The notes beneath the pieces were generated by a model. That model was not told where the DNA came from. It worked only from the letters and a program-made list of their open reading frames with translations, and ran no database searches. Source: Eledone cirrhosa (taxonomy: Eukaryota). From it: 64,000 nucleotides of DNA. Position 1 is the stretch's first letter; each line of letters begins with the position of its first letter. Both the position numbers and the translations under genes were made by a program. Shown here in pieces: positions 12,060 to 33,400 of the stretch. The stretch spans positions 5,580,001-5,644,000 of the forward strand of contig OZ024743.1 of the NCBI GenBank assembly GCA_964016885.1, read 5' to 3'.

Positions 12060-12116
<57 letters not shown>
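11933..12116. repeat. Long interrupted (TA)n microsatellite
   Basis: Direct inspection; further (TA)n at 2315-2370, 12324-12370, 13361-13414, 20960-21003, 21352-21411. Confidence 0.95.
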
Positions 12117-12118
<2 letters not shown>

Positions 12119-12323
12119 AAAAAGTATGACCCCGACGGCAGAGCTCAAGCCGTTTCGACGACTATTTCTGGACTCCTAAAAAAGAGTCCAGAAATAGTCG
12201 TCGAAACGGCTTGAGCTCTGCCATCGGGGTCATACTTTTTCCTATTTCCCACTCTACTACTCTAAGTATTGAGTACTCTGGTGCGTTATGGTCCATCTGG
12301 TTCCTTACCACAATTCCTTTGTT
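12114..12323. mobile_element. Fold-back element (62-bp stem, 8-nt loop) with the 3' half of a hammerhead
   Basis: Arms 12114-12175 / 12184-12245, one mismatch; GAAA-cggc(ttgagctct)gccg-TC in the minus-strand arm; between (TA)n tracts. Confidence 0.65.
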
Positions 12324-12476
12324 ATATATATATATACATATATATATATATGCATATATATATATATATATTTCGTATCTCCGAGGAAATACGGTTTTAG
12401 GAAGCCGTAGCTATGCAAACACCGGGGGGGGGGGGCTAACGCCATCTGGTGATGTCCAGCAGAAGCAAGGGGGACA

Positions 12477-12520
12477 ACCGTCTATACATTTCAGGCTTAA
12501 CTGGCCTTCGTCAGGACGGT
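12477..12520 (-). ncRNA. Type I minimal hammerhead ribozyme (canonical core)
   Basis: Minus strand reads accgtc-CTGACGA-aggc(cagttaa)gcct-GAAA-tgta-TA-gacggt: 6-bp stem I, 4-bp stem II, short stem III, AUA cleavage triplet (cut 3' of 12483). Confidence 0.9.
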
Positions 12521-12859
12521 CCCTCCCACCGCTTGCGACTGCTGGACTAGAAGACAGGCGAGAAAATATACTTTTCTCGTCTGTGTAAATGAGGTGATTA
12601 ATCTCATTTGTATATGAAGCTGCATAAGTTGTCTCAACTTATAATAAAAAAGAAATAGGATTTCACTTCAAGCATAGCTTTATACAATATGTATAAATAT
12701 TTCGTATCTCCAAGGAAATACGGTTTTAGGAAGCCGTAGCTATGCAAACACCGGGGGGATAACGCCCTCTAGTGATGTCCAGCAGAAGCAAGGGGGACAA
12801 CCGTCTATGCATATTTTCACGCCTGTCTTCTAGTCCAGCAGTCGCAAGCGGTGGGAGGG

Positions 12860-12903
12860 ACCGTCCTGACGAAGACCAGTTAAGCCTGAAATGCATAGAC
12901 AGT
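12860..12903 (+). ncRNA. Type I minimal hammerhead ribozyme, inverted copy
   Basis: accgtc-CTGACGA-agac(cagttaa)gcct-GAAA-tgca-TA-gacagt. Core intact, one mismatch each in stems I and II, palindromic ATGCAT stem III. Confidence 0.85.
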
Positions 12904-13073
12904 TGTCCCCCTTGCTTCTGCTGGACATCACCAGAGGGCGTTAGCCCACCCACCCCGGTGTTTGCATAGCTACGGCTTCCTAAGACCGTATTTCTTTGGA
13001 GATACGAAATATTTATACATACTGTATAAAGCTATGCTTGAAGCGAAATCCTATTTCTTTTCTATATATATAT

Positions 13074-13360
13074 ATATCACATAAGAAACGGAGAATCAGT
13101 GTTGCATCGAATAAAATTTATTAGACATATTACAATCGTTTCTCTGGCGACCAGCTCGATTTCAGAGTCAGGTTCGATCATTACATCGATCGTGCCCTCG
13201 AGCTGGTCGCCAGAGAAACGATTGTAATATGTCTAATAAATTTTATTCGTCCCAACACTGATTCTCCGTTTCTTATGTGATATCATACTCTGCTCTGTAA
13301 GAGCATCGAGTGCTCAAACGGCCTACCGCTTACGGACGCTTTAAGCATCCCACACCAATT
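13074..13360. mobile_element. Fold-back element (86-bp arms), Penelope-like pLTR end
   Basis: Arms 13074-13159 / 13198-13283 nearly perfect; GAAAcgattgTA followed by AATAAA; (TA)n both sides. Confidence 0.65.
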
Positions 13361-13420: not shown

Positions 13421-14389
13421 CTTACTTACACGAAGTCCTCTTCCTGATTGTTGTATTATTTTGTACCAAATCAAAGTTTCTTGAATTTACTTTGCCATTT
13501 CGACAAGAGGTCCATGTCAATGAAAGACTTGTCTGAGCCTGTGTCAAGTAAACCTTCTTTTTTGTGTGAATTGACATAAATTGTTAAAAGGTTTGTATTA
13601 TGATTCACGGAAGCAAGTTTATAACAGGCACCAAGATTACTGCCATCATGGGCTTCATCGGGGCCCTCGTTATTATTCAAGACTGCTGCGTGTTTTATCT
13701 TCTTTAGTACCTTCTTATTTTTAACAAAACATACTGTTGCCCAGTGGCCTTTCTTGTGGCAGAAATTGCAAGTTGAATTTTTTGCAGGGCACTCTGATTT
13801 TTTGTGATATGAACCACCACACCAGAAACATTTTGATGAAGAAGCAGCGAATATGGGTTGTGACGGGGGTTGTATTGTTGTTGTTGACAGATTTTGTGCG
13901 TCTTCTATTGCCAGTTCTGTGAGAGCGGTTTGGAATATTTTATCTAGATTTTCGTCAGGTGATTCCAGAAGTCGTTGTTTTATGGTGGCGGATTGAACAC
14001 TTGACACGAACGCATCACAAATCAACAATTGTCTATGTTGTTCCCCTGTTAGGGTTTAGTGGGGAATTTCTTTGCGAGGGCTTTTAATTCAGTCATGTAG
14101 GCCTCCAATGATTGCCCTTCTTGTTGACGATGGTTGCGTAGTTTATGTCGGGTCATTATTGCTGAGCCTTTCTTTTGAAATTTATTATCAAGAATGGATG
14201 ACGCCTCATCGAATGATGTTGCTTCTTCAATGAGAGTATAAGCATTGGCTCTGCAAAGAACCAGAAGGACTGACAGCTTACTTTCGTCAGAAACAGACAA
14301 GTTTTCCAAATAGATCGCCAACATTCATAGGCATAATCGGATTCACTAGGATCATCCGGAAGAATTTTCTTGAATATTTTCGGATCCAT
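13415..14389 (-). pseudogene. Ty3/Gypsy gag-protease remnant
   Basis: MDPKIFKK start; two zinc knuckles (CFWCGGSYH..C, CNFCHKKGHWATVC); protease LLDTGS; frameshifts. Confidence 0.85.
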
Positions 14390-14499
14390 GATTGAATAAA
14401 ATTGTCTCTGTTGTTCCCCTATTAGGGGTTTAGTGGGGCATTTCAATTGACGTCCCCTATCTGAGACAAATGCAGCTTTAATCAAAATAGAATACATTT

Positions 14500-15745
14500 C
14501 CTTGGACATGTCATAGAAAAAGGTAAATTAAGATCGGTCTTTTTGCATAATATGCTAAATGAATTAAGGGCTCTTCTAACCTCTCAGTCGTTCTTACAAA
14601 GGCAAGAAACACCATTGATAAACAAGGTCTATCAAACGAAGAAAAATCTACTATTAATAAGATGAAGGAAGAACTCATAAAGGCATCACTGTGTTCACCC
14701 GATTTCACTGCACCATTTATAATCGAAACCAATGCATCAAATATTGCTATTGGCGGAACTCTATCACAAAATGGTCGTCCAATTGCTTTTCTTAGTAGAA
14801 CCCTAAATAAGTCAGAAAAAGGACATTTCATCATCGAAAAGGAAGCTTGCGCAATTATAGAAAATGGAGGCATATGATCAGCGCTGTTCCACATTGTAAT
14901 ATAACAGACCAACGATCGGTTGCATTTGCGTTCAACAAAAAACACACTTCCAAGATTAAAAACGAGAAGGTAGCCCGTTGGCGACTGGAGTTAAGCAATT
15001 TTAACCTTACCTTCTCATATAGACCTGGTTCATTAAACCAAGCCGCAGACGCCCTATCGCGCTGCTGCTCTACTAAGACGGAACACGAATTATATAATAT
15101 TCACTCACGTCTATGTCATCCGGGGCTCACCAGACTTCTACATTATTGTAAATCAATGAACTTGGCATATTCTATTAATGAAATAAGAGAAGTTATCGTC
15201 AATTGCAAAATATGCCGTGAATTAAACCACAATTCTATAAACCACCCAAAGGAAGATTAATACATGCGACAAGACCCTGGGAAAGACTATCAATGGACTT
15301 TGTGGGTCCCATGGCTATCTCAAACGGTTTTCGATTTATATTAACTATAGTTGACGAGTACTCACGTTTTCCATTCGCCATTCCCTGTAAAGAGATAACA
15401 ACGGACGTAGTAATTAAACATCTATTGGAGATATTCTCTATATTTGGAAAACCCAGTTCGATTCATACGGATAGGGGACGTCAATTTGAATGACAAAAAC
15501 ACAGATTTCTTATGGAGTAATAACATTGTAAAAAGCCACACCACGCCATATCGACCCCAAGTCAACGGCCAATGCGAAAGAGTTAACGGCACAATATGCA
15601 AAACGATAAGTCTGGCATTGAAAACAAATAATCTTAATAAAAATGGAGTAACATGATTCCAATCGCTCTGTCGTCTATCCGAGGATTGCTTTGCACTGCT
15701 ACAAACGCCACACCACATGAAAGAGTATTTTCATTCACCAGAAGG
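14500..15745 (+). pseudogene. Ty3/Gypsy pol remnant (RT end, RNase H, integrase), opposite strand to gag
   Basis: IETNASNIAIG, IEKEA, ITDQ, YRPG..N..ADALSR, H..LCHPG, MDFVGP, VDEYSRF, TDRGRQF, NGQCERVN; frameshifts and stops. Confidence 0.88.
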
Positions 15746-21412: not shown

Positions 21413-24400
21413 CCACAAGAAATTGTTTTAAAGGATACTCTTCTTTTCTGGAATTGTTTTTCAAAACATATTGAGGTTGAGGTGGATCAGGTTTGCTAGG
21501 CACTACATCAACACCTTTCCCTGTAAGGAATAAAATGATCAAATATTCTATAGATGAAAAAATTCTCTTTTATCTCTAAAGACCTATAATCTTATTAACA
21601 ACACATCTCAGGCATCTTTGCATTTAATTTTATAGATATTTTATAACTATTATAATTTTAGTGTAATATGTCATCATTTTATGATAATGATATTACAGAC
21701 TGGCAAAGACAGATCTTCAGACTAAAGGCCTTACAATATTTACTTTTGTCCCTCAAAATTCTGAAAACAAATCTTGTGGGCATCAACAGAATCAGGAATA
21801 GGTATATACTGGGCAAGTATTGGGTTAAATTTAATCAACTATACCCATCTCCTAGAAATGTGTGATCTCATGCCAATATAAAAAAATTATTATTATTATC
21901 ATTTTATAGATACTTTTTTATGTTTAAATATATTATGGAGGCACTCCGTCAGTTATGAGTGTTCCAGTTGATACAATCAATGAAACAGCTTGCTAGGGAA
22001 ATTAACGTGAAAGTGGCTGAGCAGTCCACTGATATGCATACACTTAATGTAATTCTCAGGGAGATTCAGCACGACACAGACACAGAATGTGTGACAAGGC
22101 TGGCCATTCGAATTACAAGTACAACTCATTTTTGCCAGCTGAGAGGACTGAAGCAACATGAAATAAAGTATCTTGCTCAAGGACACAATGCGCTGCCAGG
22201 AATCAAACTCACAACCTTACGATTGTAAGCCATATACCCTAACCACAAAGCCACGCGCCTTCACATTTGTAATATATACCTTAACAGAAAGAGACTATTT
22301 AGGAATGTCGACTATCTAAATTAAGGGTTGCAGCTTGCCAAGTTGTAACATGGTGCATATCATGTCAGTGGAGCTGTAATTGTTCTTAACAAATATACTT
22401 AAGTTTTATGGGCTCAACCCACTTGTCTGTAGTTTGGTATTATAGAGGTATAGTTCACCATTGAGATGGCATAAGGAACTGTATAACTGATGACTATTAA
22501 GGTTGCAATGATAAGTTGAAATCATTGCACTGTATATTGGGAAAGAGATGGATACTACAAGCAATGTTAATAAGTACTAGTTTGACACTGAAACTAATTC
22601 AATCAATTATTGTTTCCTCTGCTGTCAATGTGTGAGATCATTATCTATGATTGTTAATACTGAGTCATGATATATAGTAGCTGATTGAAATTGAATCATC
22701 ATCATCATCATCATCATCAGGTTTAGCGTCCGTGTTCCACGCTTGCATGGGTTTGGACGGGGGTTTTCCCACTTGAGGCAAGAGTGGTTGTCTTGCTCGC
22801 ATAGGACTGTCTGGCGGGTTTTCTACAGTTGGATGCCCTTCCTAACACCAACCACATTTACAGTGTGGGGCTGGGAGGTTTTTACCGTGTTGCCTACACG
22901 GCCACATTACAGCGTGGACTGTCTGGCGGGTTTTCTACAGCTGGATGCCCTTCCTAACACCAACCACATTTACAGTGTGGGGCTGGGAGGTTTTTACCGT
23001 GTTGCCTACACGGCCACATTTACAGCGTGGACTGTGTGTTTTTTGTCGTGACACCTACACGATCTCATTTGTTTCGGCCTGGATGTTGTGGGACCAACAT
23101 AACTTTACATTGAAAGGGGCGGTGTGGGTGGGGTGGAGGTGGTGGAACGGGGGTGTGTTTTGATAGAGGTGCCTACTGACTGTAGTAGGTTTTTACTTTG
23201 TATTTAGGTAAGGCGGGTCTTCTCTATTACTGAGTACCGCCAAAGGTCTCGGTCCAGTGACATTGTCTTGGAGAGGTGTAAGCGTGTGAGGTCGGAATTT
23301 ATCAGCTCGTCCCATGTTTTTCTGGGTCTGCCTACTCCGTGGCTACCGTCTATCTTTATTGCCCTGCACTTTGTTATACAGCTGTCGTCTTTCATGCGCA
23401 TCACGTGACCGTACCAACGTAGCCTTCTCTCGAGTAAACAACATCTGATCCCTCTTATTTCTAATTTTTTCCTTAGTTCGTTTATGCTTTGCCGTTCACG
23501 TATATTACTATTGCACATCCAGCGGAGCATGCAAGCTTCGTTCCTCTCTAGTCTGCGTATATCCTCTGCACACAATGCCCAGGTCTCACTGCCATGCAGC
23601 ATTGCTGTTCGTATGCAGGCATCGTATAACCTGCCTTTCATTTTTAGGGAGAACCCTCTAGCGGCTAATAGTGGTATAAGCTCTCTGAACTTTTTCCATC
23701 CAGTTCTGACTCTAGCTACTGTACTTTCAGAGCACCCTCCCCCACTGCTGATTTTGTCACCCAGATAACGGAAGCTGTCCACTATTTCTATAGAACCCTC
23801 TGCGCAGTTGAAGGAGCTAGTATTTTGTGGGCACTTGCTGCTACTTATTGCACCAGAGCACCGGCCACATGTAAAATCTATGTTCTTAGTTAGCTTACCT
23901 GTGATCCCACTACATCTTTTATGCACCCATACTTTGCATTTGGGACATAAAATGGAGTTTCTACCTACGCCTTTCCTACACACTGAGCATGGCCATTTCC
24001 CCGATGGGACCGCCGCCTTATTTTCTTTCCTACAAACTAGAACTTTAGTCTTAGCCAGGTTAATTTTAAGGCCTTTTGATTCTAGGCCGTGCTTCCACGT
24101 TTGGAATTTCTTCTCTAGTTCGGTCATTGATTCAGCTATGAGCGTTAGATCATCTGCGTATAGGAGTTCCCATGGGCAGCCGGTCTTGAACTCCTCTGTT
24201 ATAGCCTGAAGGGCAATAATAAATAGTAGGGGGCTAAGTACAGAGCCCTGATGGACACCAACTTTTACGCTAAACTCTTCACTATATTCGTTGTTAATTC
24301 TAACCTTACTGACTGTTTCTTTATACATGGCTTGTATAGCTCTCACAAGCCATTCGTCAACACCTAGTTTTCTAAGAGACCACCAGATAATGGAACGGGG

Positions 24401-27400
24401 GACTCTGTCGAAGGCTTTCTCCAAGTCGACAAAAGCTAAGTATAGGGGTTTACTTTTAGCTAGGTACTTCTCCTGTAGTTGTCGTACAATGAAAAGAGCG
24501 TCTGTGGTACTTTTGCCTGACACAAACCCGAACTGCATTTCATCTAGATCAATTCTCTCTCTGATTAGTTGCGCTATTACTTTTTCCGTGACCTTCATGA
24601 CCTGGTCGATTAATTTAATGCCTCTATAGTTACTCCTATCTAGGGCATCTCCTTTTCCCTTATAGCAGTTAACGATGATGCTGCTACGCCATTCCTTCGG
24701 AACAACCCCATTCTGTACGACTTGGTTAACTATCCGGGTGACCATGGTGTGTCCCACCGAACCAGATGCCTTCAGCATCTCAGCAACTATTTCCGAAGGC
24801 CCAGCCGCCTTACCCGTCTTCATATCTTTGATTGCCTTACTTATTATACTACCTTCAACTAACACTGCTGGTCCCTCTATTGGGTCGATCTGGGGGAGAC
24901 TGTCTTTCTCCCATTTGTTCTCCTCATTTAGAAGCCTTTCGTAGTGACACTTCCAAGCTACCTTCTTATCAGCGTCGGTGATGGCAAGTATGCCATCATC
25001 GTTAAGTACACACTTCTCCCCGACAATATCACGGTTTTCCTTGACACATTGCCTGGCAATCCTGAACACCTCACGTTTTTGGTCCTCACGTTGTAGAACA
25101 TGCTTGAACTTTCTTTCCTCTGCTTCCCTTCTTGCGAAGTACACTTGTCTCCTAGCTTCCCTCCTGGCCACTTGATAGTCTTCTCTACTTCCCCCATCCC
25201 GCCATACTTTCCAAGCCTGCTTTTTGGCCTTAATTGACTCCTCCACCTTACTGTTCCACCACCATGTTACTCTCCTCCTACCTACAGGCCTGCTCCAGCC
25301 ACAGACTTCGTCTGCCGCCGTCAGCAGGTTTGCTCTCAGGAATTCCCACTGTTCCTCTATATTATACGACTCTAATTGCTCTTCCTTACTGTCGAAAGCG
25401 TCAAGTAATTTGCTTTGAAATTTATTTCTGGCTATGGGGTCCTTTAGCTTCCATATTTTTCTCCTGAGGATAGTCCTCTTTCGCTGTCTAGTACGTCTCG
25501 TCCTGACTATGAGGTCGCTAATTATCAGTCTATGTTGGGAGGTGAATTCTTCATGGGGGTGGGATTTAGTGTTAACAACAGACACTCTGTCACGTCTTCT
25601 GGTAAGGATATAATCTACCTGGCTTGTGTGTTCCCCCGATCTATAGGTGATCAAGTGATTGTCTCGTTTTTTGAAGTTAGTGTTACAGATAGTTAAGTTA
25701 TTTGCGTCGCAGAATTCCAGGATTCTGGAGCCTTCCTCATTTCTAGTACCGAACCCATAGCCTCCATGGATTCCGTCATAGCCGTCACAATGTTGTCCAA
25801 CGTGACCATTTAGGTCGCCTGCAATAACTATATAGTCACTGTCGGTTATTTGGGAGGTAGCGAGCATCAGTGTCTCGTAGAATCTGTCTTTTATAGCGCG
25901 GGGCTGTCCGGATTGGGGTGCGTACGCAGATATTACTGTCACCGTAGTTTTATTGAGGACAAGTCTTGTTTTAATTATTCTGTCGTTCACTCTATTTACG
26001 TCTATTATCTTATCTGCCCACTTTTCTGCTACCATGATTCCTACCCCACCCAACCCATTGTCATTTCCCACCCAGAAAAGCTTATAGCATCGCTCTTTAC
26101 CCACGATGAATCTAGCCGACCCTCCCCTCCACCTGGTCTCTTGAATACAACAAACATCGACCTCCTTACGTTCAAGCATTTCTACAACCTCGTTAGAGCG
26201 ACCCTTTAAGGTGCCTACATTCATGGTACCAACTCTGAAGTTTTGGATTGCGTTTGGAGGGTGGGAGCGGTGGGGCGCGGGGGGGGATGGGGTTATGTTA
26301 GCCATCCTGGGCCGAAACAAGGAGGAGTGCTTGCATTTAATGATACTTCATAACAATTATAATATATATAAGATTATATTTCAAGATATTAAAAGATTTT
26401 CTAAAAGAAGAGGTTGTCTTATGAGAAGTATATAGAATCATAACCTTTAAATTCTCTAATAGAAATTATTGAAAAAATTGACAGATTCTTAAAATAATGT
26501 ACTAAGTAAGGTAATAACACATGAGCTAATGAAACCTTACTGATGTGATTACACAAATAACAATAAATATCAAACTGAATACTAGTGTAAACATAATGAA
26601 CAATTTTACTAATCATCTCGTACAAAAAAAAACCCTTCATGGATTGCAGTAAAGAAAAATACTGCTGTGATCCCCAAGCCTAAATTATGAACCCTTTTCA
26701 TACCAAACCTTGTGAAACTGCCCCTGGCTCTATGATACTAAACTGTTTGTTTTCAAGTGTTTATATTCATCTAAAAGATTTCTGTCATAATTTTATGTAA
26801 GAACCTAACACCATCTTAATAATGAGAAAGTTATATTACTAAATTCCTCCAAATTCTTTGAAAATCATAGGCAGTATCCTTCATTAGAAATATGATAATG
26901 AAAGGGTTAAAGTAAAACGCTTAATGGTAAATGATAATTTGTCAGCTTATACAATGAGTAACACAAAATGAACATTTGTGGAGGAAACTTTAAAAATAAT
27001 CGTATATGCTAGTGGCTTTGTAATGAGGACTATAGGGTAAAAAGTCAATTACTTTTTTAAATATTTTTTTTACTCGTGGACTGCAATTTGAGCATCTGCA
27101 AGGATAACTGAAGCAACCATTATTTTACAATGAGATGTCATTTCTAACATCTGACTAGTAAAAAGAGGTTGCTGTTATTTAAATAAAGTTGTCTCTTACT
27201 TAAGAACAGCATAGAGCAGACCTAATAATAATGTATTGAGCTGTGTGCTTTTGAAGCCAGCAATCTAACTATTCAGTCACAGAACCATAAATTATGGGAT
27301 GGGGTCGATGAAAAGGGGGCAAAAGAACACTGATTTAGTAGTATTGGACTACCACCTGAAAAATCAGTGAATCATATCGATTCACTGATTTTTTACCTCT

Positions 27401-30400
27401 TTTTACTAGTCAGATGTTAGAAATGACATCTATACCAGCTCTTAACTGTGCCTAACATACTTTGTAACCACTGTTTCAATCAATTTTAGTTAGGCATTAC
27501 ATATAAATACAGAATAAAATTATACAATGAACATTGTATAATTGCCAACTGTTTCATTAGCTTACCATGTTGAGTACAAGTGACCTTATATGAGCTAAGA
27601 ATAGGGCAACACAAAACTGATCTGATGTATTATTCATTTTATTTTTTTGTATCTTATGAGATACGAAAATTAGTAGAATTATCAGGAGTTCAATATAAAC
27701 TCTGATTGTATAAAGCAACCCAAAATATTTTTTCTCAAAATCTCTATAATTTTTTTTTTATATTTTTGTAATACAACTTCTACAATACCTTTTCCTTTCC
27801 ACTTCAACTTGGCAACTGACTGACTGAAATCTACATGTATTCGTCGATCATCAATCAAGACATTATCCATTTTAAAATAGGCATTCTCACATTCATCAGG
27901 CTACCATAAAAAAAATAAAAAAATTAAATAAATACAAAATTATTAATATTATAACATTAATTTGTGACAAGAATATAAAGTTTAAAAAAAAAACATAAAT
28001 ATGATATAAAGCTGAAAATAAAACTGAATAAAAATTGGAATACATGTTTGGTAAGATAAAATGCCCTAGGAAAGTATGCAGTCAATGAAATAGACCCCTA
28101 TTGATTATATGAGAATGTAACAAAACAAACAGTTCCTTACTCAATATCATCAGCACAGAGTTAGCTACCTGCAGGTGTGAGCCTTGTGAGTTGGAATGGC
28201 TGTTCCAGCACGTCTCACTCACCATCCTCCAGGGAAAAGCTTTCTCTATTCTGTCCGCTGGGGCCGCAAGGTGGCCAGCACATGCACCTCTATTTGCTTA
28301 TAATAGTGAGAGATGGGGATAGACGGAGGAGTTTGATTCCATTGTGTTCGGACCTGGTGTATATATACATATGTGTATATGTGTTAATAGATTGTTATTT
28401 TGAATTCAGTTATGTTCGTTATTGTCACTGACCATCACAGTGTATACCATGTCCTGTTGTCAGTGCTGTACACTGTAACGATGCCAAAATAATTAACTCT
28501 AAACAACCAAGTCTACATAGCTCTAAGTAAATACCACAATTTACTGTGATGTAGCTGGTTAATTGTAAACAGTTTATCATTTACTACAGGTTAATTTTTA
28601 TTTCATGCTTTAGACTGTCAGCAGTAATTAAAGAAGTTTGAAATATTTGTTTCTAAACAAAGAAGTGGTAAAGTTAATGTTAACATGGAAAAGACAATTG
28701 AATAAGAAAAAAAGAAGCTTATTGCTATCAAAGAATAAAAAGAAATGTATTAACCTTTTCAAATTCAATAAATGCATACTGCAAGGATTCTTTAGTTTTT
28801 GAGTCTTTGATCACCTCACAGCTATATACATGAAAATAAAATCATATAGACATGAAAAGAAAACACATACATATATCATTAAAGATTAAATCACCTCCAC
28901 GCATAAGAAACTTCTCTATTATTATGGATTGGCAGTATCGGTAGAGCATCAGACAACATGCTTTACGGCATATTATTATGATTCTTAATGTTCCATCGAG
29001 GTTAGCTTTGCCCCTATTTATCTACTATTTCTAGCATACATATGGACCACAATGAAGTTTCCCCTATTTAGCTGCTATATCTAGCACACCCATGGACCAC
29101 CACAAGGTTCCCCTTGTTTAGCTGCTATTTCTATCACACTTATAGATCACCATGAAGTTTGCCTACTTAGCTGCTATTTCTAGCACACGTAAGGACCACG
29201 ATGAGGATCCCCCTATTTAGCTGCCATTTCTAGCACACCTATGGGACACCAAGAAGTTCCACCTACTTAGCTGATATTTCTAGCACACTTATGGACCACT
29301 ATAAGGTTCCCCCTGTTTAGCTGATGTAGCTGCTATTTCTAGCCCGCTTATGGACCACCATGAGATTCCACCTATTTAGCTGCTATTTCTAGCACATCTG
29401 TAAACTATGAGGATATCCCAATTTAGCTGCCATTTTTAGCATAGCTACAGACCACCATGATGTTCCCTCTATTTATCTGTTATTTCTAGCACATCTATAA
29501 ACTATGAGGTTCCACCTATTTAGCTATTTCTAGCACAGGTATGGACCACGATGAAGGTCCCCCTATTTAGCTGCCATTTCTAGCACACCTATGGACCACC
29601 ATGAGGTTCCACCTATTTAGCTGCTATTTCTATGAACAATTATGGCGAGATCCCTATTTAGCTGCCATTTCTAGCCTACCTACAGACCACCATGAGGTTC
29701 CATCTATTTATCTGTTATTTCTAGCACATCTATGAGGTTCCCCCCATTTAGCTGCTATTTCTAGCACACCTATAGATCACCATGAAGTCTGCCTACTTAG
29801 CTGCTATTTCTAGCACACGTATGGACCACGATGAGGATCCCCCTACTTAGCTGCCATTTCTAACACAACTATGGGCCACCATGAGGTTCCACCTATTTAG
29901 CTGCTATTTCTAGCACATCTATGGACCACGATAAGGTTCCCCTATGTAGCTGCTATTTCTAACACCTATGGACCACCATATGGTTCCCCCTGTTTAGCTG
30001 ATGTAGCTGCTATTTCTAGCACGCTTATGGACCACCATGAGGTTCCACCTATTTAGCTGCTATTTCTAGCACATCTGTGAACAACTGAGGTTCCCCCTAT
30101 TTAGCTGCTATTTCTAGCACACCTAAGGAACACCATGAGTAACCCCCTGTTTAGTTATGTAGCTGTTATTCCTAGCAAACCTATGGACCACCACGAGGTT
30201 CTCCCTAATTAGCTGCTATTTCTCGCACACCTATAGATCGCCATGAGGTTCCCCCTGTTTAGCTAATGTAGCTGCTATTTTTAGCACACCTATGGACCAC
30301 AATAAACCTCCCCTTATTTAGCTGCTATTACGAGCGCAACTATGGACCACTATGAGGTTCCCCATGTTTAGCTGATGTAGCTGCTATTTCTAACACACGT

Positions 30401-33400
30401 ATGGACCACCATGAGGTACCTGCTATTTAGCTGCTATTTCTAACACACCTATAGACTACCATGATGTTCCCCCTATGGACCACCATGAGGTGCTATTAAA
30501 TTAATTGTTTCTACTTTTTGGCACAAGGCCAGCAATTACCCAGTGCATTACTGGTACTTTAGTTTATCGACCCCCGTAAGAATGAAAGGCAAAGTTAACC
30601 TCGGCGGGATTCGAACTCAGAATGGCAAGGGCCGTAACTCTATGCGTCAAAGCATGGCGTCCAACCCTCTACCGATACTGCCAATCCACCGCCCTAGGTG
30701 CTATTAAATTAATAATGTAGGAAGTGAGTTGATCCAAGCATAGCTATTGATAGCGTGTTGTGTTGTTAGCTTTGATATTGCTTCTTAGTTTGTTTCTGTA
30801 TTTTATTGTTTCTAGTCCTACCCATGCTAGCATGGAAAATGGATGTTAAACGATGATGATTGTGATGATGATGTTTCCTTGCATAAAGAGAAATGTTTTG
30901 TTTTTTTTATTTCCATGTTTCTTTGTTACATTTATCAGTCATGTTCTATTTGTTTCTATATACTTTTTCTAGCTCATCTGTTGTTATTTCATAGTAGTTT
31001 TCTATTTGTGTCAAGCCACCCTCCTTGTGTACAGAATATTCTGTTTATGTCAACTTTTGGGTGGTGGCTTCGGTATGCTGTCAGTATTTTTGTGGGGGCT
31101 TTCTGTCTGGTCATATCTTCTCATTGGTCTAGTCTTTTGCTGTTAATTCAAATCAACCCATTCCATTTGAAGTTTTCTTACAGTTAACATTTAACCCTTT
31201 AGCATATCCAGCCAAAATTTTCTCACCTCTTGCTATTCAAACCAGCCATAACTAGCCACTCATACTGGTGTTAAAGTATTGTTCTCAAAATAAATATCAA
31301 AATCTCATAGATTCGATATTATGTGAAGTAAAGCCTTTACCACAAAAATACAATAGTAATATTGATTTAATGTAAATGCTAAAAGTCAAATAATTGTTTC
31401 TACTTTTTAGCACAAGGCCAGCAATTATCCCAGTGTATTACTGGTACTTTATTTTATCGACCCCGTAAGGATGAAAGGCAAAGTTAACCTCGGCTGGATT
31501 TGAACTCAGTCCGTAAAGGGACGTAACTGTGCTACAAAGCATGGCGCCCGACCCTCTACCGATACTGCCAATCCACAAAAGTCAAATAATGATACATAAT
31601 TGAATAGTGACAATAGTTATAAATTGGACTCTTATATTGTTGGTTCATCAGTAACTTAATATTTTTTTCTTTTGTTTTCATACAACATTTATTGATTAGC
31701 ATGAGTTGAATTAGTTTGTAATGAAAGGAGAAATGTTGCTATTTGTCTACATTTATCACAGCTAAAATATATCACAATAAGAATGGTCATTATAGTGTTG
31801 CTTCATCAGCAGCAGCAAAATGATCAATTTTGGGGTTGAATATCTGAATATTCAAATACTAAAATTTTTCAGAATAATCCTATTAACATAAACATTATAG
31901 ATACATTTTTAAAAAGTAGACTATGAGATAAGTTATTCAGAAGTAGATAATGGGGATGGGTGTAGAGGTATTCCTTCAGTGGTAATTGGCTTAAATCCAC
32001 TGAAATATAATAAATTTAATGAATTTGCTAAATGTCAGGTGACAGATAATTACCTGACAACAAAGATCTATCTTTGTCTCTTAGCAAAGGCCTGTCCCTA
32101 AAAAAAAAAAAAGAAGTGCTTACCTACGAATATTACCAAAACGAGAAAAGATAATTTCCAAATCTTCTTCTGTTGTAACAGGGTTTAATTTGCAGACAAA
32201 CAAAACATTTTCAGGTGGTGCAACATCCACATCAGGAAGATCTCCAACCTAGAGAAGAGAGACAGAGGAACTGAGGATGATGATGATGGTGGTGGTGATA
32301 GTGTTGTGGTTGTGGTGGTGATAGTGGTGTGGTCGTGGTTACGGTAGTGATAACAACAAAGGTGGTCAAGATAATGGTGATACTTCACTACAGCAAAGTA
32401 GTGATAAGCACCAAGTCACACAAATCAAAGCCATTAGAAAAGATCTTTAAATATTAGCATGAAAAGCATCAACTTCTAATAATTGAGTTAACAACCAATT
32501 GGTAGCACGGCTATCTTAACAACAATATAGGGTCCTGCACAAACCAATGCATGGGACTCCTACAAACACAACAAAATACATAGATTATAGCAGTGGGCCC
32601 CTAAACCTTGTGGTTCCCCAGGCAACTGACTAGTGTACCCATGCCTTAACCCTTTCATGACTGCATTTTTAATGAAATACACTCAATTTCAATTAATTCA
32701 GAATTTTGAGGGATTTACTAAAATTACTAAGATAGTAACTTAATGTAAGGTTCTTATATAAAATTATGTTAGATTTTAATTTAAATTAGAAACCTTTAAA
32801 ATGGGTAGTTTTATTTCATAGAACCCAACCGGATTTGCCTGGGTTGGTAACAAAAGGGTTAAAATGGCATTAATTGGTAACCAATAATAGCAAACAGCTA
32901 CAAACTTATATTTCATAAACATTTATTGAAAATACATCATTACAATATATCAATTATTTTTTTACTTGGAGAAAATTCTAAAGAGAAATGTAAGTATTGC
33001 TGACTTACCATTTCTAGAATCTGGGCATTAGACTTGGCTTCTTTTTGTTCCATAAGTTCTTTTAATTCTTCTTCCTTCATACCTTTGGTGTCATCAAGTT
33101 CTTCAGTATCACCAATACGGTCACTCTACAATATCATTTTTATTACAATGAAAATCATTTCCAAACACAATTTGACTTCCACAATTTCTTACTTAAAACA
33201 TTTATGATAAGTCATTAATTTAACTGATATATAATAAACAAAATGACAGTTGCTTTTCAGCAAATATACTATTATTCTTAATTAAATACATTTCAATTTA
33301 TATTCCATATATTTTTAAACACAAAACAAAATGAAAAAATGGTTATGTCTGTGTACTAAACTCAATGCTTTTGCAAAATCTCTCATATCTATAGCTTCCT

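What the first reader, a model, noticed from the sequence alone, without database searches (positions are those of the whole stretch)
12371..13061. Candidate retrozyme: ~323-nt structured tandem unit bounded by hammerhead cleavage sites
Seen: on the minus strand the locus reads AUGCAUA^GACGGU (12812-12800), then ~323 nt, then a complete hammerhead accgtc-CUGACGA-aggc/gcct-GAAA-uguaUA^gacggt (12520-12477), then a repeat of the unit start, then (TA)n. The two AUA cut sites (after 12806 and after 12483) delimit a 323-nt monomer with no credible ORF. The monomer is packed with hairpins (12554-12584, 12587-12609, 12624-12642, 12679-12697, 12704-12721, 12719-12738). Stem I extends further (ccagcag/ctgctgg, gcaag/cttgc). 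Known: metazoan non-LTR retrozymes are 170-400-nt tandem units with type I hammerheads that yield circular RNAs and are thought to be mobilised by Penelope-like RTs. Inference: this is such an element, and I know of no description of this family in cephalopods. It is the strongest candidate for an undescribed system in the window.
Basis: partly seen in the sequence, partly recalled or inferred. Interest (0 to 1): 0.92.

Follow-up and report, generated by a model that had tools for sequence, protein, structure and literature searches.

The report
Hammerhead retrozyme copied by Penelope-type enzymes
This is one copy of a short, non-coding mobile repeat that carries a self-cutting RNA motif; it belongs to a known class (retrozymes), and the way its copies are inserted points to the Penelope-type retrotransposon machinery that probably moves it.

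Summary
The hammerhead, the 323-nt spacing and the hairpins are real. Only one complete hammerhead lies on the minus strand.

The unit is a dispersed family: 342 exact hits to a 35-nt core and 611 to another 31-mer. An older sister subfamily (about 62-68% identical) keeps the stems by compensatory changes. There is no ORF, and no coding body was found attached.

Copies show the Penelope-like (PLE) insertion signature. They end at two fixed 3' sites about 43 nt apart, mostly beside (TA)n, and their 5' ends vary. In 32 of 36 pairs one arm has the short end and the other the long end. Copies read through the cut site (0 of 38 arms stop there), both arms share variants, and a ~10-unit array shares one rare variant. 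This fits a circular or uncleaved multimeric template.

Verdict: a new member of the non-LTR retrozymes. Cleavage, circles and the exact PLE partner are not shown. The host taxon was not checked.

The parts
12359..12812 (-). Direct arm, about 1.4 units (unit positions u317 to u119). The 5' end is at the inversion junction; the 3' end is the 'short' family end, running into (TA)n (unique sequence ends near 12371).
   Evidence: L001 row
12483..12805 (-). 323-nt cut-to-cut monomer (u1 = 12805), non-coding, GC 42%, strongly folded
12477..12520 (-). Complete type I hammerhead: stem I 12520-12515 with 12482-12477, core 12514-12508, 4-bp stem II, GAAA 12492-12489, 2-bp palindromic stem III, predicted cut between 12483 and 12482. 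This copy has AUGUAU where 72 of 80 family sites have AUGCAU.
   Evidence: cleavage is inferred
12800..12812 (-). Upstream AUA site: substrate half of a hammerhead only, at the junction of the two arms
12811..13065 (+). Inverted 5'-truncated arm (u237 to u162) ending at the 'long' family end, followed by TA
12860..12903 (+). Second hammerhead, on the inverted arm; core letters intact, one mismatch each in stems I and II; predicted cut after 12897
12323..12371 (.). (TA)n target tract on the left; a short TA run at about 13063-13075 bounds the right side

Best explanation
The element is a non-autonomous, non-coding non-LTR retrozyme mobilised in trans by an endonuclease-bearing Penelope-like element. 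Step 1 (inferred): a copy with two hammerheads is transcribed and cut, most likely as a double hammerhead paired through the palindromic stem III, then ligated to a 323-nt circle. Step 2 (inferred from copy ends): a PLE protein cuts both strands of a (TA)n tract and primes reverse transcription inside the RNA at two fixed sites, near u119 and u162, one for each DNA end. Step 3 (shown in the DNA): the two cDNAs run backwards through the cut site for variable lengths (under 100 to 855 nt in single runs; one array of about 10 units) and are joined 5' to 5'. The result is TA, short-end arm, inverted long-end arm, TA, as in this window.
For: Family: 342 and 611 exact hits, controls 0; 2139 candidates, 40 scored at 92-96%. 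Fixed 3' ends: 139 of 163 open 3' ends lie at u105-130 or u145-168; 5' starts are spread over the unit. Head-to-head in 58 of 99 non-redundant loci; 32 of the 36 pairs with two canonical ends are short+long (binomial p about 1e-6; the other 22 pairs have a non-canonical end). A young coding RT/GIY-YIG family in the same genome also has two ends (15 short, 13 long, 5 running on). Read-through: of 38 arms from loci picked by a pattern downstream of the cut, 30 pass the cut site, 8 stop before it, 0 stop within 8 nt. Same template: mismatch at six polymorphic sites is 25/294 between arms and 36/260 between tandem passes, against 2635/7164 between loci. The ~10-unit array (L261:3131-6435) ends at u119, and 10 of 10 units carry a variant seen in 4 of 165 pieces elsewhere, so it is not the family master. 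Covariation between subfamilies: 88.9% of cells paired against 32-51% for slid controls, with two-sided changes in stems I, II and the distal stem. Three unit pieces run directly into another family's 3' terminus, one (L216) into a GIY-YIG-type PLE ORF remnant. Two internal start sites and the tail are shown for a PLE in vitro (PMC11167929); inverted 5' copies, a one-sided tail and microsatellite bias are PLE hallmarks (10.1101/2021.04.23.441226).
Against: No cleavage, transcript or circle is shown. No coding PLE with a terminal repeat homologous to the unit was found among the families sampled. In PMC11167929 the hammerhead was not needed for insertion and uncut RNA was the main template. In the 2026 preprint only 1 of 9 predicted Xenopus retrozyme dimers cleaved. 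Arm lengths show no pile-up at whole turns. The covariation rests on essentially two lineages, so each two-sided change is about one event; the stem III change could be CpG decay. The chimeras could be deletions between neighbours in TA clusters. The array also shows signs of later local duplication (a repeated deletion). Rfam does not recognise the hammerhead.
Confidence: 0.62

Rival explanations
1. Same non-autonomous element and same PLE priming, but the template is an uncleaved linear multimer from a few homogeneous source arrays. The hammerhead is weak or dispensable and circles play no part.
For: Read-through and within-locus identity fit this equally well. PMC11167929 found uncut RNA to be the main substrate. 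No whole-turn pile-up. Arrays can be collapsed in an assembly.
Against: The one long array found carries a rare variant and is not the source. Several haplotypes each gave rise to copies, so several arrays would be needed. Core and stems were kept across two subfamilies of the same unit length; 120 of 149 pieces covering the core keep all core letters.
Confidence: 0.28
2. The unit is only the terminal repeat (pLTR) of a coding PLE, and the copies are 5'-truncated insertions of that element.
For: The insertion signature is identical to that of coding PLEs, and short head-to-head pLTR remnants are described (PMC4209133 passages). The search for the parent covered only a few PLE families.
Against: Upstream of the hammerhead the sequence wraps round into the unit itself, up to 2.6 units in single runs and about 10 in one array. 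By my reading, none of 129 loci (32 with PLE-protein hits) has an ORF contiguous with a unit 5' end on the same strand. The older subfamily is also tandem, with spacings of 324 and 328 nt and no PLE ORF.
Confidence: 0.06
3. A DNA-level repeat (minisatellite, MITE or foldback) spread by recombination, with an incidental hammerhead.
For: Inverted arms and TA flanks resemble a MITE; the array shows some local duplication.
Against: The arms have variable inner ends and unequal, paired outer ends; copies are dispersed over many contigs; the stems covary.
Confidence: 0.04

Closest known systems
Metazoan non-LTR retrozymes (PMC7229834: coral, mussel, axolotl; 10.64898/2026.07.22.740005: vertebrates, insects, coral)
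   Same: Type I hammerhead once per unit; unit 323 nt; GC under 45%; non-coding; self-paired monomer; monomers, dimers and a multimer in the genome; PLEs present in the same genome.
   Different: Mostly short dispersed pieces in (TA)n with two fixed 3' ends and inverted partners. I did not see this anatomy described for retrozymes in the parts I read. No target duplication can be read inside TA. Expression is untested, and no homologous pLTR was found, whereas 24 of 57 Xenopus families had a TE match in the preprint.
EN+ Penelope-like elements (Poseidon PAc, PMC11167929; Neptune, Nematis, Naiad, 10.1101/2021.04.23.441226)
   Same: Two 3' ends separated by a tail (about 43 nt here, 30-40 bp in print), 5' truncation, inverted 5' copy, AT-rich or (TA)n target, hammerhead upstream of the start sites.
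   Different: No RT or GIY-YIG ORF; the repeat wraps onto itself.
Canonical metazoan type I hammerheads acting as dimers (PMC4209133 passages, citing Forster 1988; axolotl in PMC7229834)
   Same: 6-bp stem I, 4-bp stem II, 2-bp stem III with a palindromic loop. The hexamer does not fold alone but self-pairs at -4.7 kcal/mol.
   Different: AUA (young subfamily) or AUU/GUU (old subfamily) triplet; below every Rfam hammerhead threshold; activity not measured.

Membership tests
non-LTR retrozyme | Type I hammerhead in each unit | tested here: met
   Descriptor hit, covariation, 120 of 149 cores intact. Rfam models do not score it.
non-LTR retrozyme | Unit of 150-450 nt, GC under 50%, no protein | tested here: met
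   323 nt, 42% GC, longest Met frame 42 aa
non-LTR retrozyme | Tandem copies with at least two consecutive hammerheads somewhere in the genome | tested here: met
   Dimers (spacings, L027) and a ~10-unit array. Not met by this locus alone, which has one complete hammerhead per strand.
non-LTR retrozyme | Independent of a coding element (no LTR or ORF body attached) | tested here: met
   sample of 129 loci, not the whole family
non-LTR retrozyme | Self-cleavage | not testable with these tools
   needs in vitro transcription
non-LTR retrozyme | Expression as linear and circular monomer RNA | not testable with these tools
   no RNA run was available to test this
non-LTR retrozyme | Homology to the pLTR of a resident PLE | tested here: inconclusive
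   No match in the families sampled; most PLE families of the genome were not sampled
EN+ Penelope-like element (autonomous) | RT plus GIY-YIG ORF | tested here: not met
EN+ Penelope-like element (insertion mode) | Two 3' ends with a one-sided tail, 5' truncation, inverted 5' copy, microsatellite target | tested here: met

The most novel reading that the evidence does not exclude
The family is a fossil record of the retrozyme life cycle. One circular RNA is engaged by a two-headed PLE enzyme that primes both broken DNA ends at two fixed internal sites and rolls round the circle, up to about ten turns. The enzyme is promiscuous and switches between retrozyme and PLE RNAs within one insertion. 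That would be direct genomic evidence for steps that the papers I read present as hypotheses.
Probability: 0.4. Interest if true: 0.7.

Novelty: new member of a known kind. Interest (0 to 1): 0.5.

Why it matters
The class is known, so the element itself is not a new system. Its value is as a test case. PMC7229834 names PLEs only as strong candidates for moving retrozymes, and the 2026 preprint says the mechanism remains to be worked out. This family gives two mapped start sites (u119, u162), a rule for how the arms pair, candidate coding PLE families with long open frames in the same genome, and one chimera with a PLE ORF. These plug straight into the published in vitro PLE assay and make 'is the circle the template, and which enzyme reads it' testable. 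Hundreds of inverted pairs could also be a source of double-stranded RNA if transcribed (speculation).

Tried and rejected
Rfam: no hammerhead family at either threshold; only hairpin-type chance hits.

Expression: no RNA holder listed, which is no evidence either way. The three runs of unknown kind were laid as contigs; they hold many related copies and say nothing on expression or on this junction.

Autonomous partner: two coding PLE families were pulled out (RT and GIY-YIG matches, those of L167 below Pfam's cut-offs) and share no terminal repeat with the unit. A 10-of-11-letter likeness between one family's end and u97-107 was dropped, because it is that family's long end but lies near the unit's short end. 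A recalled Pfam accession was not in the library.

One-turn stop: no excess of arms of exactly one unit; the u41-60 bin is inflated by alignment breaks in the poly-C tract.

My first impression that the right neighbour is a fixed palindrome was query bias. The resemblance of a translated unit segment to the PLE zinc-finger linker in L216 is treated as chance.

The two neighbouring families could not be extended, so whether they are coding stays open.

Literature searches listed no cephalopod retrozyme and no paper on retrozyme insertion ends. One search was swamped by unrelated cephalopod papers. The supplement of PMC7229834 was unreadable, preprint supplements are closed, and Repbase and Dfam were not available; any of these may already list this family.

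Full report
OBSERVATION. The minus strand holds a type I hammerhead at 12520-12477 as described. A strict descriptor finds it once in the window and never in 30 Markov-resampled windows. The two AUA sites are 323 nt apart. The monomer folds far better than shuffles (z -5.87), is 42% GC and has no usable frame even when concatenated. Rfam does not recognise it. The upstream cut site is therefore only a half hammerhead at the junction, and a second hammerhead with two stem mismatches lies on the plus strand. Positions below are unit coordinates, with u1 the first base after the cut.

FAMILY. The genome holds 342 exact matches to a 35-nt core and 611 to a 31-mer at u54-84, with 0 for the reversed controls. 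A DNA search had 2139 candidates, of which 40 were scored, at 92-96%. Copies differ by 7.4% between loci. A chance hit in a flank led to an older sister subfamily: 649 candidates, about 80% to the query, and mostly 62-68% to this unit over its whole length. It has tandem spacings of 324 and 328 nt and no PLE ORF. I aligned 18 of 72 young and 20 of 23 old hammerhead regions. For the named structure 88.9% of cells pair, against 32-51% when slid. Two-sided changes occur in stem I (18 U-A, 17 C-G), the distal stem (20 U-A, 17 G-C) and the stem II closing pair (18 A-U, 7 U-A, 12 unpaired). These are about one event each, since two lineages are compared, and the shuffle control was not exceeded for the two measures that count pairs or types. 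Stem III is a self-complementary hexamer in 72 of 80 young and 10 of 16 old sites. That is the dimer-type arrangement described in PMC4209133; its two forms could also be linked by CpG decay.

INSERTION ANATOMY. In 99 non-redundant loci (29 duplicates dropped; check), 139 of 163 open 3' ends fall at u105-130 or u145-168. TA-rich sequence follows 55 of 94 segment 3' ends and precedes 5 of 94 5' starts in the first 56 loci. 5' starts are spread over the unit. 58 loci are head-to-head. Of 36 pairs with two canonical ends, 32 join a short and a long end, 2 are long-long and 2 short-short. The window's locus follows the rule. These loci came from four searches with different biases (full length, core, u54-84, long), so the fractions are not genome-wide estimates. 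This anatomy is the PLE signature: an inverted 5'-truncated copy, a one-sided tail and microsatellite bias (10.1101/2021.04.23.441226, passages). The tail has been shown to be the interval between two internal RT start sites (PMC11167929, parts 1-2 of 4). The genome has coding RT/GIY-YIG elements with long open frames. The younger family has its own hammerhead, TA flanks and two 3' ends.

NOT A pLTR REMNANT. Upstream of the hammerhead, copies continue into the unit itself, passing u162 and u119. Single runs reach 855 nt, and G000:C2:83920630-83923934 holds about 10 units ending at u119. Of 129 loci, 32 have PLE-protein hits in the flanks; by my reading none is contiguous with a unit 5' end on the same strand.

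TEMPLATE. Reverse transcription starts downstream of the cut, so a cut linear monomer would give copies that stop at u1. Of 38 arms in loci chosen by the u54-84 pattern, none stops within 8 nt of the cut, 30 pass it and 8 stop earlier. The template is therefore continuous there: a ligated circle or an uncut multimer. Arms and tandem passes of one insertion agree at polymorphic sites far more than different loci do (8.5% and 13.8% mismatch against 36.8%), so one RNA variant fed both arms. All 10 array units share a variant found in 4 of 165 pieces elsewhere, so the array came from one template and is not the family's source; part of it was later duplicated locally. This favours circles but does not prove them, and there is no pile-up at whole turns.

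PARTNER. Not identified by homology. Of 24 non-canonical 3' ends, three verified cases run directly into another family's 3' terminus. L043 runs into 23 nt of the young coding family's end. L221 runs into the family at window 12114-12322. L216 runs into a degraded GIY-YIG-type ORF and terminal repeat of a relative of the young family. Template switching by a shared enzyme explains these; so does deletion between neighbours in a TA cluster.

MECHANISM AND STATUS. Shown: hammerhead anatomy, covariation, copy number, fixed and paired 3' ends, read-through, single-variant origin. Inferred: cleavage as a double hammerhead, ligation to a circle, PLE priming in trans. In this locus the upstream half site could in principle be cut by the catalytic half of the same monomer, but its stem III and the plus-strand stems carry mutations, so it is probably a dead copy (inference). 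Against over-reading: the PAc hammerhead was dispensable for insertion in vitro (PMC11167929), and 8 of 9 predicted Xenopus retrozyme dimers did not cleave (10.64898/2026.07.22.740005, parts 1-3 of 5).

COMPARISON. It meets the sequence-level definition of a non-LTR retrozyme (PMC7229834: passages and sections 14 and 17; supplement unreadable) and inserts like an EN+ PLE. An Octopus vulgaris repeat annotation lists Penelope-like families and has 0 occurrences of 'ribozyme' in its main text (PMC13282606, passages). Searches listed no cephalopod retrozyme. The host was not verified, and repeat databases and supplements were not seen. An earlier scan note from another genome describes a similar TA-targeted insertion pattern for a tRNA-bearing unit; it is not independent evidence.

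VERDICT. A real, new member of a known kind. Interest 0.5, for the mechanistic record in its insertion ends rather than for the element as such.

Noticed in passing
window 13074-13359: A second, unrelated head-to-head element in the same TA tract: short end at 13074, long end with a tail of about 75 nt to 13359. Longer copies show a hammerhead-like core with a long stem II and over 450 nt of shared upstream sequence; 1341 and 1978 candidates. Coding status unknown.
   Followed up: partly
window 12114-12322: A third head-to-head element (short arm 12114-12175, long arm 12184-12322) with what looks by eye like the 3' half of a hammerhead. 2047 candidates, best 40 at 96-99%, 29 of the 39 other loci with an inverted short arm; very high depth. 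Three such families are stacked in one (TA)n tract.
   Followed up: partly
L141-L170 (e.g. G000:C4:65189817-65190605): Very young coding PLE family: 145 scored hits at 97-99% amino acid identity, open frames up to about 1400 aa, own type I hammerhead, two 3' ends in TA, several head-to-head pairs.
   Followed up: partly
L121-L125, L138: Second coding RT/GIY-YIG family with repeated 796-aa open frames, whose 3' region is a long TA/TG-rich tract with no hammerhead found by my descriptor.
   Followed up: partly
flanks of L003-L086 and L091-L170: About ten further distinct type I hammerhead sequence families appear in TA-rich flanks, many with palindromic stem III; the genome may hold several more retrozymes.
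   Followed up: no
L070:875-1090 and L171-L200: Older sister subfamily of the unit, with a U at the cleavage position and a shorter stem II loop.
   Followed up: yes
window 13471-15260: Fragments that look by eye like an LTR retrotransposon (zinc knuckle and protease motif on minus, RNase H/integrase-like piece on plus; labels recalled).
   Followed up: no
window 23204-26347 (-): A 1047-aa open frame that looks like an intact endonuclease-RT LINE ORF (label by eye).
   Followed up: no
window 29011-30476: Minisatellite of about 29 copies of a 50-nt unit.
   Followed up: no
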